From Trypanosoma brucei (taxonomy: Eukaryota): a stretch of DNA of 64,000 nucleotides. Positions 51,225-53,990 of this stretch are shown piece after piece. The stretch is from contig CP000066.1 of NCBI GenBank assembly GCA_000002445.1, positions 736,001-800,000 on the forward strand. Direction: 5' to 3'. The position numbers and the translations under genes are program-made. Each line of letters begins with the position of its first letter. Position 1 is the stretch's first letter. The notes beneath the pieces were generated by a model. That model was not told the DNA's origin. It made no database searches and saw only the letters and a list, made by a program, of their open reading frames with translations.

Positions 51225-53990
51225 TCAAGGACCCACCGACGCATTTGCAGCTGCCACCCTAAGTTGCAAAACAGCCGCATCAGCATGCCCCTGAAGGATT
51301 TCATTACTGCGTGCAGCGCTACCGGACCGCAGCTGCTGCCGCCGCTGTCGCAGCAACTCGGCAGCCTCGGTGATCATCGCCTCACGCTCAGCAAGCGTGG
51401 AGCGCAGTCGTCGGTGCTTTTCTTCGTGATCATGATTGAGTCCGCCACCTACACGCATCGCCCTCACATGCAGCAGAAGGTCATCCATTTCAGAATACTT
51501 CCGTACAAGTCGGTCATCCCCATCCCACCGACTAGGAGATGTTGAAGAGTTCAATGCACGGCGAATGGGAGTACTTAACGCATTATCCCTCTGGGGTATC
51601 ATCGCGTCTCGCTCACTTGACCTGAATGGAGGTGGTTTTTCAATCCTAATCTCAGGCACCGAAGCTACACATCTTGACGGAGCTATTTGGTGCTGATCAA
51701 ATCTATCAATACGTCCACCCTTCTCAGCAGGACACGCACTGTGGCTGTAACCTACTTTCCCAGAAGAAGGTGCCGACGAATAGTCATGCTGTGTTGGGGC
51801 GTCAAGAAACCTCGGTGTATATTCTAATCCTGCAACTCCATTTACCCGTTCTTTGGTACCCGTTGACCCCGTGCAACGCCCCAACTCCAAACGAAATGGT
51901 CTATCCTTCCCGTGCAAGTGATCCACCCGTCCCTCACTCATGGCTCGCGGTTCCTCTAACGCCCCTGATAACACGTCTCGCCCTTCCACCGATGTGTTTA
52001 TCGGACTTACGTAGCGGTGGTCATCGACTCCATGATAACGACGTAGCAAGTTATGTGTCTCACCTATTTGTTGCCTCTCCCTGCTTTCCCCATGGTTGGA
52101 AACGACTGAGGTGGAAAGAACGGGTGGGTTTGCCATCGCGGCATACTTCGACCGCAGGGCCCGGAGGTTCCGTGAAGGCTCCACAATACCTGGAAACAGC
52201 TGCTGAACCTGATTAAAGAGCGGGATAACAACAGAATCTAGAAACGCAATTTGCGACCGCCCAACGGATGTCGGGAGATCGAAACCGGGAGTAACGGGAA
52301 GACCGCGGCGGCGCTCCTCCTGTGCTTGCGCGGCGTGTTCCTCCGTGAGCACAAGCCATTTTGCTGCGATGTCTGCACCACGACTAATCACACCAAAGTC
52401 GGCTGCCAGAAGAAGGAGAGAGAGGGCATCTACCCTATCGTCAGGAGCACCGTAGTCGAAGCCGCCCTCTCGTGCTTTTGCTCGCCAGTGCTCTAAATGG
52501 TCCTCCAACACTGCGGTGTCTGTTCGGCAAATGAGTTTTGACACGATAGTCTTGAACCTTAGGAATGACTCATCATTCATACGACAGGTGAAATTGAGCT
52601 CTGGCACCTCCACTAGCTGAAAAGCAGTGGCCACATGCATTTGTTCAAGGGTACCAGGGCCGGGGTAACGATAGCACAGCGGGTCGCACGTCCGCACCAA
52701 AAACTCATTCGTACGCCCCGGGTGCCGGACGTCAAGTGCAACCGCTGCAAAAACAAGGGCTTTCAACTCCACAAGCGTCACGTGTCTCATGAGTGGCTTT
52801 GTGGCGGAGGCAAGCGAGAAAACAGCCTGCACCACATCCGCCGCGCGCACTGCGTTATGGAAAGGATTTGGTCTGTAATTATTTTCTATAGCTGCCACCA
52901 TGTGGCACCACCTTTGCATCTCTTCCTCTGAGGCAAACATCTTCCACCGCGTGACAACCTCGGCCGCTACCGTCTGCAGTGCAGAAGGTACAAGTGAGGC
53001 GACCTCTAGAGTATCAAACCCCCAGTCACTGAAATCGATGCCTTCACACAATGCAACCTGCAGTTTTGTTGGGACAACGGTCAGTATCGTGGCATGTACT
53101 ATAGACGGATGAGAATAACGTGCCGACATCGGGGCCGAAGATGACGAACGGACCATCTCGAGAGATTTTTGCTCTTGCCTAGGTTGTACAACCTCCCCCG
53201 CGCCATCCGTGCCGCCCCTCTGTGGGTTTTGAGCAGCCTGCTCCTTAATCTGGGTTTGCGTGGCAATTTGGTGCACCTTTCGCTGCGCACCTTCTGCATG
53301 CCCTTGAAATTCTTGCAGTTTACTGCTCAGAGCGCTGTTTTCCCTTTTGAGTCTGCTTATCTCATCTTGGAGTTTGCCAACTACTCGACCTCCCTCATTT
53401 GTTTTTTCTGCTTGCCCAACAAACGGCACGGACGGTGCCTTCTCCTCCCGCACGGTATCGACGGTGGATTCCTGCTTGCGCACGGAGGCATTGCGCTGCT
53501 GAAGTACCCTTGGGCTAGGTAACGGTGCTTTTCGCTCTAAATTAACCTTTTCCGTCGCATTCATTCGCATCTTAGCGTCTGGAACCCTCAAATGTGCATC
53601 CACAACCACGCGATCAGATGATGTATCTGAGGGCGGTTGCACCTTTGTCGCGGTACGGATGCGTGATAGTTTTGACGACACGTTTGGAACGGCGTAAAGC
53701 GGAAGCACATTCAACGCGGTACTGTCCCTGTCGCTACGTAGCATAAGGAAACAGCTCACACAGACTTGGAAAGGCCTGTCTCCGGAAAAAATGACACATT
53801 CCGTCTGCACACACTGGGAGCAGCACAACTTGGAGCAGCACGGACACACAGTCTTCGGTGTAGATGATGTAAATACTTTTCCACACGTGGGACAGTCGTA
53901 GTCCTTCTGCGAAAATCTTCCACAGGGGGAGTGCGAACCGTCGTAGCACACCATTACCTGAAGTTTAAGAAAAAAAAGGGCGTGCGGCAA
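51225..53990 (-). CDS. PDEC: Class I cyclic-nucleotide phosphodiesterase with N-terminal FYVE-type zinc finger (PDEC-like)
   Basis: The N-terminal Cys cluster is [32 protein letters not shown]...[10 protein letters not shown] (FYVE/zinc finger), followed by a coiled-coil ([34 protein letters not shown]). The central catalytic domain aligns to PDE4: [14 protein letters not shown] vs [35 protein letters not shown] vs [33 protein letters not shown] vs [27 protein letters not shown] vs SQVGFIDYIVHPLW. It is followed by a long C-terminal region. Confidence 0.85.
   Translation of the reverse strand: [921 protein letters not shown]

What the first reader, a model, noticed from the sequence alone, without database searches (positions are those of the whole stretch)
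51225..53990. FYVE-domain phosphodiesterase with two canonical metal-binding His positions occupied by Arg and Leu
The catalytic domain aligns unambiguously with class I PDEs. The invariant HNxxH reads HNAVR (codons cat aac gca gtg cgc), the HD(V/L)xH motif reads LDVRH (ctt gac gtc cgg cac), and the upstream Tyr of YHN is Phe. In PDE4-type structures the second His of HNxxH and the His of HD are two of the four ligands of the catalytic Zn site. The downstream Asp (AADFG) and the substrate-clamp Gln (SQIAFLD) are conserved. This architecture (FYVE + coiled-coil + central catalytic domain + long tail) corresponds to the kinetoplastid PDEC type. The substitutions suggest either a non-canonical metal site or a catalytically impaired, scaffold-like pseudo-PDE anchored to PI3P membranes via FYVE.
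Basis: partly seen in the sequence, partly recalled or inferred. Interest (0 to 1): 0.6.

Follow-up and report, generated by a model that had tools for sequence, protein, structure and literature searches.

The report
Trypanosoma brucei PDEC: a likely dead phosphodiesterase
The African trypanosome's PDEC gene, usually counted as one of its five cAMP-degrading enzymes, has lost two of the four residues that hold the catalytic zinc, yet the domain is still kept by selection, so it probably no longer degrades cAMP and does something else.

Summary
The ORF (true ATG at 53954; 909 aa, minus strand) is 100% identical to the T. brucei TREU927 chromosome-3 PDEC protein. Its class I PDE domain reads FHNAVR and LDVRH where relatives read YHNAxH and HDVxH. 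The second His of HNxxH and the His of HD are two of the four Zn ligands.

It is not an assembly error. The same residues occur in T. b. gambiense, T. b. equiperdum DNA, three run assemblies and T. congolense. The syntenic T. vivax orthologue, TcrPDEC (active, crystallised) and 11 other PDECs keep His/His. The change therefore arose after T. vivax split off and before the brucei/congolense split.

Of 47 sites invariant in the 13 other PDECs, four changed in both species: Y365F, H370R, H407L and M480T/Y. All four are ligand/metal-contact positions (P=7e-4). The rest of the domain stays constrained: 71.5% Tb-Tco identity against 26-38% in the linkers, with no rate acceleration relative to T. vivax.

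Best reading: a selectively maintained pseudo-PDE. The PI3P-anchoring claim is not supported, because the zinc finger lacks the FYVE lipid-binding motifs and scores below Pfam's cut-off. No accessible paper mentions any of this, but key PDEC papers could not be read.

The parts
51225..53954 (-). PDEC coding sequence: 909 codons plus the stop at 51225-51227. The real start is the ATG at 53954, not the TTG at 53990.
   Evidence: 100% identity over 909 aa to the T. brucei TREU927 3',5'-cyclic nucleotide phosphodiesterase (XP_843900.1).
53739..53897 (-). N-terminal FYVE-type zinc finger, aa 20-72. The eight Cys are retained, the PI3P-binding signature motifs are absent, and the score is below the Pfam threshold.
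   Evidence: 18.1 bits; 20.9 bits against a gathering score of 27.8; sequence; beta-hairpins plus a helix, pLDDT about 75.
53220..53393 (-). Long helix, aa 188-245, a candidate coiled coil.
   Evidence: H188-245, pLDDT 67-84; weak Leu_zip hit at 181-241.
52128..53129 (-). Class I PDE catalytic-type domain, aa 276-609.
   Evidence: PF00233, E=8e-44; 3v93, E=3e-117; pLDDT 92.6. TM 0.97 to TcrPDEC1.
52845..52862 (-). FHNAVR, aa 365-370. It carries Y365F. H366, the first His of HNxxH, is retained. R370 replaces the Zn-ligand His.
   Evidence: codons. (column is His in all other PDECs).
52722..52736 (-). LDVRH, aa 407-411. L407 replaces the Zn-ligand His of the HD motif. D408 and H411 are retained.
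   Evidence: codons..
52515..52517 (-). T480. It replaces a Met that is invariant in the 13 other PDECs (HTDM becomes RTDT). T. congolense has Tyr here.
52392..52406 (-). AADFG, aa 517-521. D519, the fourth Zn ligand, is retained. I520F is a change shared with T. congolense.
52236..52256 (-). SQIAFLD, aa 567-573. The invariant purine-recognising Gln568 and the clamp Phe571 are retained.
51555..52127 (-). Poorly conserved tail, aa 610-800, modelled with low confidence and mostly without secondary structure (two short helical stretches); taken as disordered.
   Evidence: 26% Tb-Tco identity; pLDDT below 50.
51228..51554 (-). Conserved C-terminal helical region, aa 801-909, with no Pfam family.
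   Evidence: 57.5% Tb-Tco identity and 41% to T. grayi; helices 810-906; no Pfam hit.

Best explanation
This is the single-copy PDEC gene of Trypanosoma brucei. Its class I phosphodiesterase domain keeps the fold and almost all family-invariant residues. In the common ancestor of T. brucei and T. congolense, after T. vivax branched off, four otherwise invariant active-site residues were replaced. Two are Zn ligands (His to Arg370, His to Leu407). The others are the Tyr next to the first His of HNxxH, the residue regarded as the catalytic His from recalled PDE4 literature (Tyr to Phe365), and a pocket Met (Met to Thr480; Tyr in T. congolense).

Without two of the four Zn ligands the canonical Zn/Mg binuclear centre cannot form. 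The protein is therefore most likely unable to hydrolyse cAMP or cGMP at a useful rate, which makes it a pseudoenzyme (inferred).

The domain has nevertheless stayed under purifying selection since the loss (shown at the protein level). The remaining pocket residues are all retained, including the purine-recognising Gln, the clamp Phe, the first His of HNxxH and both metal-site Asp. The domain therefore probably still binds a ligand or partner and has a non-catalytic role (inferred). I propose that the Arg370 guanidinium occupies the former Zn position and pairs with D408 and D519 (speculative; no coordinates were available).

The change coincides with a lineage that lacks the contractile vacuole complex, where the active T. 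cruzi enzyme works. It also coincides with degeneration of the N-terminal FYVE-type finger in all three salivarian species examined.
For: Identity and codons.

Zn ligands are the second His of HNxxH, the His and Asp of HD, and a later Asp. This follows from PMC10095301, mapped through PMC1431542 Table 1.

Not an error: R/L is present in TREU927, DAL972, T. b. equiperdum DNA, three Logan run assemblies and T. congolense IL3000.

Derived state: the syntenic T. vivax orthologue has CAT/CAT His codons. TcrPDEC and 11 other PDECs have His/His.

Active-site specificity: of 47 sites invariant in 13 other PDECs, only 4 changed in both species, and all 4 fall among the 9 contact sites. The hypergeometric P is 7e-4.

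Continued constraint:
- Tb-Tco identity is 71.5% in the catalytic domain, against 38% in the linker and 26% in the tail. This matches the T. grayi-T. melophagium profile.
- Identity to TcrPDEC is 56.9% for Tb, 55.9% for Tco and 56.3% for T. vivax, so there is no acceleration.
- dN between Tb and T. vivax is 0.37 in the catalytic domain against about 1.0 in the linkers.
- Within the brucei group the catalytic domain has 6 synonymous and 1 nonsynonymous differences. The rest of the gene has 4 synonymous and 6 nonsynonymous.

Fold retained: pLDDT 92.6, TM 0.97 to 3v93.

Rarity: both columns are His in 157 of about 165 rows among the top 150 representatives.
Against: No activity, metal-content or binding measurement exists here.

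Retention of H366, D408, H411, E437, H440, T478, D479 and D519 is also what residual catalysis at a remodelled or single-metal site would predict.

The within-species synonymous/nonsynonymous contrast is not significant (Fisher p=0.13). Synonymous sites are saturated between T. brucei and T. vivax, and T. congolense DNA could not be obtained, so no formal dN/dS test was possible.

The contact-residue set used for the enrichment test comes from my recollection of PDE4D-AMP structures.

The T. b. equiperdum assembly carries two frameshifts in this gene. If these are real, the gene is dispensable in that lineage.
Confidence: 0.68

Rival explanations
1. It is still an active phosphodiesterase with a non-canonical metal site. 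D408, D519, H411 and the water network would hold a single Mg/Mn ion. Arg370 would supply the positive charge that Zn normally provides. H366 would still act as the proton donor.
For: Every catalytic-pocket residue other than the four replaced ones is invariant in both T. brucei and T. congolense. The derived residues F365, R370, L407, F520 and H540 are themselves fixed in both species. This looks like a new selected state rather than drift.
Against: Both His columns are almost universally conserved across class I PDEs. They are listed among the 16 residues invariant in all human PDEs (PMC1431542). From established mutagenesis of PDE4 and PDE5, which I recall and did not check here, replacing these His residues lowers activity by orders of magnitude. 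Leu cannot ligate a metal. In an independent case, a Diplonema tandem PDE, the same R/L pair sits in a domain that is otherwise clearly degenerate and lies next to a canonical one.
Confidence: 0.17
2. It is a decaying relic. After African trypanosomes lost the contractile vacuole complex, PDEC lost its role and the gene is drifting towards a pseudogene.
For: T. brucei lacks the contractile vacuole complex where TcPDEC acts (PMC13340794). The FYVE-type finger falls below the Pfam threshold in all three salivarian species. The T. b. equiperdum assembly has two 1-bp deletions in the gene.
Against: The 909-codon ORF is intact in TREU927, DAL972 and three run assemblies. The T. congolense orthologue is likewise a single full-length protein. 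The catalytic domain is 71.5% identical between Tb and Tco while the linkers have fallen to 26-38%. Of 47 family-invariant sites, 39 are untouched in both species. The rate is no faster than in T. vivax, which keeps the His residues.
Confidence: 0.1
3. It is a sequencing or assembly error, or a strain-specific mutation of the reference genome.
For: None was found.
Against: The codons are identical in five further T. brucei-group assemblies, and the residues are the same in T. congolense.
Confidence: 0.01

Closest known systems
TcrPDEC / TcPDEC of Trypanosoma cruzi (PDB 3v93, 3v94). It is an active dual-specificity PDE that localises to the contractile vacuole complex.
   Same: It is the orthologue of the T. 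brucei protein. The catalytic domains are 57% identical, with TM 0.97. The architecture is the same: an N-terminal FYVE-type finger, a coiled coil, a central catalytic domain and a long C-terminal part. The PDEC-typical replacements A466 and H478 (HsPDE4B numbering) are shared.
   Different: TcrPDEC has YHNAIH, HDVCH and HTDM. It complements PDE-deficient yeast (PMC3022644). The T. brucei protein has FHNAVR, LDVRH and RTDT. T. brucei has no contractile vacuole complex (PMC13340794).
T. vivax PDEC (KAG8347631.1)
   Same: It is the syntenic orthologue, with the same gene order of RTEL1-like helicase, protein kinase and PDEC. It is also a salivarian trypanosome and also has a sub-threshold FYVE-type finger.
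   Different: It keeps all four Zn ligands as well as the Tyr and the Met.
Carbonic anhydrase-related proteins (CARP VIII, X, XI)
   Same: They are Zn-enzyme homologues made acatalytic by replacement of Zn-binding His residues, yet they are highly conserved and functional (PMC2873310). From memory, His to Arg and His to Leu are among the replacements in these proteins.
   Different: They have an unrelated fold and chemistry. This is an analogy of principle only.
Degenerate EAL and HD-GYP domains of bacteria, such as FimX and LapD (from my own knowledge)
   Same: These are cyclic-nucleotide phosphodiesterase domains that lost catalytic or metal residues but kept nucleotide binding, and now act as receptors.
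   Different: They have a different fold, a different ligand (c-di-GMP) and come from a different kingdom. Ligand binding by TbrPDEC is untested.
N-terminal degenerate PDE domain of a Diplonema japonicum tandem PDE (P0075, EP01064_P002041)
   Same: It has the same two replacements, Arg at the HNxxH second His and Leu at the HD His, in a class I PDE domain from another euglenozoan.
   Different: That domain is far more degenerate: E437, H440, T478 and D479 are also lost. It is fused to a second, canonical PDE domain. It arose independently.

Membership tests
Class I cyclic nucleotide phosphodiesterase (Pfam PF00233 PDEase_I) | Sequence and fold homology of the catalytic domain | tested here: met
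   150.5 bits against a cut-off of 24.8. E=3e-117 to 3v93. AF2 model TM 0.97 to TcrPDEC1 and 0.83-0.86 to human PDE3/4.
Class I cyclic nucleotide phosphodiesterase (Pfam PF00233 PDEase_I) | Four Zn ligands: the second His of HNxxH, the His and Asp of HD, and a later Asp | tested here: not met
   R370 and L407 replace the two His. D408 and D519 are kept. The ligand assignment comes from PMC10095301 and PMC1431542.
Class I cyclic nucleotide phosphodiesterase (Pfam PF00233 PDEase_I) | Invariant purine-recognising Gln and hydrophobic-clamp Phe | tested here: met
   Q568 and F571 are present in T. brucei and T. congolense.
Class I cyclic nucleotide phosphodiesterase (Pfam PF00233 PDEase_I) | Hydrolysis of cAMP or cGMP | not testable with these tools
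   This needs an enzyme assay or yeast complementation.
Kinetoplastid PDEC | Orthology: best match to PDECs and conserved gene neighbourhood | tested here: met
   The top hits are trypanosome PDECs. The helicase-kinase-PDEC gene order is shared with T. vivax.
Kinetoplastid PDEC | N-terminal FYVE-type finger, coiled coil and centrally placed catalytic domain | tested here: met
   Eight-Cys finger at residues 20-72, helix at 188-245, catalytic domain at 276-609 of 909 residues. The finger scores below Pfam's threshold.
FYVE domain (PI3P-binding) | Pfam FYVE gathering score | tested here: not met
   18.1 to 20.9 bits against 27.8. T. grayi, T. melophagium, Leishmania and Leptomonas PDECs score 38.7-42.9.
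FYVE domain (PI3P-binding) | WxxD, R(R/K)HHCR and RVC lipid-binding motifs (motif definitions from my own knowledge) | tested here: not met
   The sequence reads ...[12 protein letters not shown]...[10 protein letters not shown]...FQVCVSC. There is no Trp, no basic HHCR motif, and QVC stands in place of RVC. The HHCR motif is absent from all PDECs examined.
FYVE domain (PI3P-binding) | Eight Zn-coordinating Cys in CxxC pairs | tested here: met
   C21/C24, C37/C40, C45/C48 and C65/C68.
Pseudoenzyme | Loss of residues essential for catalysis in a homologue of an active enzyme | tested here: met
Pseudoenzyme | Retention under purifying selection | tested here: inconclusive
   The protein-level evidence is strong. 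A formal dN/dS test was impossible, and the within-species contrast gives p=0.13.
Pseudoenzyme | Demonstrated absence of catalytic activity | not testable with these tools
   This needs biochemistry.

The most novel reading that the evidence does not exclude
TbrPDEC is a cyclic-nucleotide (or AMP) binding receptor. In this reading, a class I PDE domain lost hydrolysis through loss of the Zn site but kept the purine pocket, with Arg370 now contacting the cyclic phosphate. It would act as a cAMP sensor or buffer in T. brucei and T. congolense. These organisms, to my recollection, lack the classical cAMP effectors. This would be the eukaryotic class I counterpart of degenerate EAL/HD-GYP c-di-GMP receptors.
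Probability: 0.2. Interest if true: 0.75.

Novelty: new variant of a known kind. Interest (0 to 1): 0.5.

Why it matters
Papers on trypanosome cAMP signalling list PDEC as one of the five T. brucei PDEs, or describe the PDE families as conserved in T. brucei (PMC6379439, PMC4436052, PMC13340794). None that I could read notes that its metal site is broken.

If PDEC is inactive, cAMP turnover in African trypanosomes rests on fewer enzymes than assumed, and PDEC is not a target for active-site inhibitors in T. brucei or T. congolense. Results from T. cruzi PDEC also cannot be transferred to these species.

The domain is still conserved and its purine pocket is intact. It is therefore a concrete, testable candidate for a non-canonical cyclic-nucleotide-binding protein, in organisms whose cAMP effectors are largely unknown.

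The dating of the change, after T. vivax split and before the brucei/congolense split, offers a natural experiment. The active and inactive forms are syntenic orthologues.

Tried and rejected
- **Literature.** Searches for TbrPDEC, TbPDEC and Tb927.3.3070 found nothing. So did PDEC+brucei+'catalytically inactive' and 'pseudo-PDE' in its variants. A looser search (PDEC, brucei, inactive, histidine) returned nothing relevant. The papers most likely to comment could not be read. These are Kunz 2005, Wang 2012 JBC, Schoijet 2011, Seebeck 2011 and Wang 2007. Prior knowledge therefore cannot be excluded.
- **T. congolense DNA.** It is not on record, so no Tb-Tco dN/dS could be computed.
- **Tb-T. 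vivax dN/dS.** Synonymous sites are saturated in four of the five regions, including the catalytic domain.
- **Word-indexed homologue searches.** A search with the catalytic domain gave only 2 hits, and one with T. congolense PDEC returned only itself and the T. brucei protein. No further Nannomonas or Trypanozoon orthologues were found.
- **PROSITE-type regex.** An HD signature recalled from memory was tried as a membership test. I dropped it because several bona fide PDECs also fail it at other positions.
- **Structure models.** They return no coordinates, so the idea that Arg370 fills the Zn site could not be checked. The full-length model is of low confidence (pLDDT 52.5) and was used only for secondary structure.
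- **Assembly error.** Rejected.
- **RNA scans.** tRNA and Rfam scans of the window found nothing.
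Full report
**What is there.**
The minus-strand ORF at 51225..53990 begins with TTG only because the ORF lister allows bacterial start codons. The first ATG is at 53954. The resulting 909-aa protein is 100% identical to the T. brucei brucei TREU927 '3',5'-cyclic nucleotide phosphodiesterase, putative' (XP_843900.1) on a 1.65 Mb contig. 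This is the single-copy PDEC gene on chromosome 3 (PMC2689650).

Pfam finds a PDEase_I domain at residues 365-591, E=8e-44. The best solved relative is the catalytic domain of T. cruzi PDEC, 3v93, at E=3e-117. An AlphaFold model of residues 276-609 has pLDDT 92.6 and superposes on 3v93/3v94 with TM 0.97.

A low-confidence full-length model (pLDDT 52.5) gives the secondary-structure layout:
- a small zinc finger at residues 20-72
- a long helix at 188-245
- the catalytic domain
- a low-confidence, mostly non-helical stretch at 610-800, taken as disordered
- C-terminal helices at 810-906

**The observation.**
The codons are exactly as reported. ttc cat aac gca gtg cgc encodes F365 H N A V R370. 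ctt gac gtc cgg cac encodes L407 D V R H411. TcrPDEC reads YHNAIH and HDVCH at the same columns.

In class I PDEs the Zn ion is held by four residues: the second His of HNxxH, the His and Asp of HD, and a later Asp. The Mg ion is held by the same HD Asp. In SmPDE4A these are H421, H457, D458 and D575 (PMC10095301). They correspond to HsPDE4B H410, H446, D447 and D564, which are among the 16 residues invariant in all human PDEs (PMC1431542, Table 1). T. brucei PDEC therefore lacks two of the four Zn ligands and keeps D408 and D519.

An exhaustive phmmer search of 1.84 billion representatives gave 7667 hits. In an alignment of the best 150, both columns are His in 157 of about 165 occupied rows.

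**It is not an error, and the change can be dated.**
R370 and L407 are present in several independent sequences:
- T. b. gambiense DAL972
- three independent run assemblies
- the T. b. equiperdum genome, at the DNA level
- the T. congolense IL3000 orthologue, which reads NPFHNALRAADV and [11 protein letters not shown]

The T. vivax orthologue lies in the same gene order, RTEL1-like helicase, protein kinase, PDEC. It has canonical YHNAVHAADV and AAHDVRHPG with CAT codons at both His positions. T. cruzi, T. grayi, T. melophagium, T. theileri, Phytomonas, Leishmania, Leptomonas, Angomonas and four unnamed PDECs from run or metagenome assemblies (P0005, P0006, P0022, P0023) also keep His/His.

By parsimony the replacements arose after the T. 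vivax lineage split off and before T. brucei and T. congolense separated. Relative to the T. vivax codons, each replacement needs a single second-position nucleotide change: CAT to CGN, CAT to CTT and TAC to TTC.

**The change is confined to the active site.**
I aligned 16 PDEC catalytic domains. Of 47 sites invariant in the 13 PDECs other than the brucei group and T. congolense, 39 are unchanged in both T. brucei and T. congolense. Four changed in one species only.

Four changed in both: Y365F, H370R, H407L and M480T/Y. All four belong to the nine invariant positions that contact metal or nucleotide in PDE4-AMP complexes. That contact list comes from my recollection of those structures. The hypergeometric P is 7e-4.

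Retained in both species are Y360, H366 (the first His of HNxxH, regarded as the catalytic proton donor from recalled PDE4 literature), N367, D373, D408, H411, G413, E437, H440, T478, D479, D519, E539, the purine-recognising Q568 and the clamp F571.

**The domain is still constrained.**
All Tb-Tco divergence postdates the loss, so it measures constraint on the altered domain.
- Tb-Tco identity is 71.5% in the catalytic domain, 38% in the linker, 26% in the tail, 48% in the finger and 57.5% in the C-terminal region.
- The same profile holds between T. grayi and T. melophagium, which have intact sites: 73, 28, 37, 76 and 61%.
- Identity to TcrPDEC is 56.9% for T. brucei, 55.9% for T. congolense and 56.3% for T. 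vivax. There is no acceleration after the loss.
- dN between T. brucei and T. vivax is 0.37 in the domain and about 1.0 in the linker and tail. dS is saturated.
- Among six T. brucei-group sequences, the domain carries 6 synonymous and 1 nonsynonymous differences. The rest of the gene carries 4 synonymous, 6 nonsynonymous and an in-frame 3-bp deletion. This is suggestive but not significant, Fisher p=0.13.

**Interpretation.**
The canonical binuclear centre cannot form, so the protein most likely does not hydrolyse cyclic nucleotides at a useful rate. This is an inference. It is supported by the near-universal conservation of both His residues, and by published PDE4/PDE5 mutagenesis that I recall but did not check.

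The fold, the purine pocket and the remaining metal-site residues have been kept in two lineages whose unconstrained segments have nearly randomised. The domain must therefore still do something. A pocket that binds a ligand or a partner without turnover fits best. Residual catalysis at a remodelled single-metal site is the main rival, at about 0.17.

I propose that Arg370 occupies the Zn position and pairs with D408 and D519. An independent degenerate PDE domain in a Diplonema japonicum tandem PDE carries the same Arg/Leu pair. This hints that the combination is a preferred way of filling the empty site. Neither idea could be tested without coordinates.

**Context.**
The active T. cruzi enzyme works at the contractile vacuole complex in osmoregulation and needs its FYVE domain for localisation. 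T. brucei has lost that organelle (PMC4534343; PMC13340794).

In line with this, the N-terminal finger of all three salivarian species scores below Pfam's FYVE threshold of 27.8 bits: T. brucei 20.9, T. congolense 24.5, T. vivax 13.3. Stercorarian trypanosomes and Leishmaniinae score 38.7-42.9.

The eight Cys are retained. The T. brucei finger has no Trp of WxxD, has [10 protein letters not shown] in place of R(R/K)HHCRxCG, and has QVC in place of RVC. The basic HHCR motif is missing from every PDEC examined.

A pure 'decaying relic' reading is unlikely given the constraint data. The two frameshifts in the T. b. equiperdum assembly remain unresolved.

**Novelty.**
The gene and the PDEC family are known. 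The accessible literature either lists PDEC as one of the five T. brucei PDEs or describes the PDE families as conserved in T. brucei. It never mentions the broken metal site. No paper in the library uses the term pseudo-PDE or its variants.

Several key PDEC papers and reviews were not available, so the point may already have been noted in passing elsewhere.

I rate it a new variant of a known kind, with moderate interest. It corrects a common assumption and yields a testable candidate for a non-canonical cyclic-nucleotide-binding protein. The mechanism remains inferred.

Noticed in passing
L001 4791-7518 (T. b. equiperdum GCA_003543875.1, CM010674.1); equivalent to window codons 285 and 625 of the PDEC CDS: This assembly has two 1-bp deletions in PDEC: CTATAGTAC becomes CTAT-GTAC, and AGCAGGGAG becomes AGCA-GGAG. 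The gene is therefore annotated as two fragments of 220 and 238 aa, with the catalytic domain out of frame. The deletions are absent from the other five T. brucei-group sequences. They could be long-read assembly errors or a real pseudogene in a tsetse-independent lineage.
   Followed up: partly
P0075 (Diplonema japonicum EP01064_P002041), residues 367-616 versus 980-1224: This is a tandem PDE. Its first PDE domain is degenerate and carries the same Arg/Leu pair at the two Zn-ligand His positions. Its second domain is canonical. This is an independent occurrence of the same replacement pair. Other degenerate cases among the top 150 representatives are P0041 (Q/S), P0116 domain 1 (L/C) and P0033 domain 1 (H/I).
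   Followed up: partly
window 53739-53897 (-); also the N-termini of P0002 and P0017: The FYVE-type finger is below the Pfam threshold in all three salivarian species, including T. vivax, which keeps an intact catalytic site. Degeneration of the finger therefore seems to predate loss of the metal site. No PDEC examined has the R(R/K)HHCR motif, although the T. cruzi domain is reported to be needed for localisation.
   Followed up: partly
window 51228-51554 (-), aa 801-909: This C-terminal helical region is conserved across trypanosome PDECs: 57.5% Tb-Tco identity, and 33-41% identity to T. grayi, T. melophagium and the unnamed PDEC P0005. It matches no Pfam family. Its consensus is ...W.A.ERLARKY.EVD.LLLIVRSMRVD...LAEREAAI.EAVEL.RQRR.
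   Followed up: no
window 53445-53449 (-), codons 169-170; loci L004-L006: Three run assemblies (ERR7929156, ERR7929157, ERR7929161) share an in-frame 3-bp deletion in the linker. All non-TREU927 sequences have C11R, in the zinc-finger region ahead of the first Cys pair.
   Followed up: no
P0002 residues 1-55 (T. congolense IL3000 CCC89768.1): The annotated T. congolense protein has a 55-aa N-terminal extension with no counterpart in the other five aligned sequences. Its Met56 (MVSFDG) aligns with the T. brucei Met1 (MVCYDG). The annotated start is probably too far upstream.
   Followed up: no
window 15866-22483 and 46292-48856: These are ORF-poor, AT-rich stretches (GC 0.26-0.37 and 0.31) inside what otherwise looks like one minus-strand polycistronic unit. 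Of the 21 ORFs of at least 250 aa, 20 are on the minus strand. The one plus-strand ORF overlaps a minus-strand ORF. The stretches contain only short low-complexity repeats, no tRNA and no Rfam match.
   Followed up: partly
window 49819-50163 (-): A spurious ORF translates (AC)n/(AT)n microsatellite sequence as HTHTHTHIYIYIYIY. This is intergenic simple sequence downstream of PDEC.
   Followed up: no
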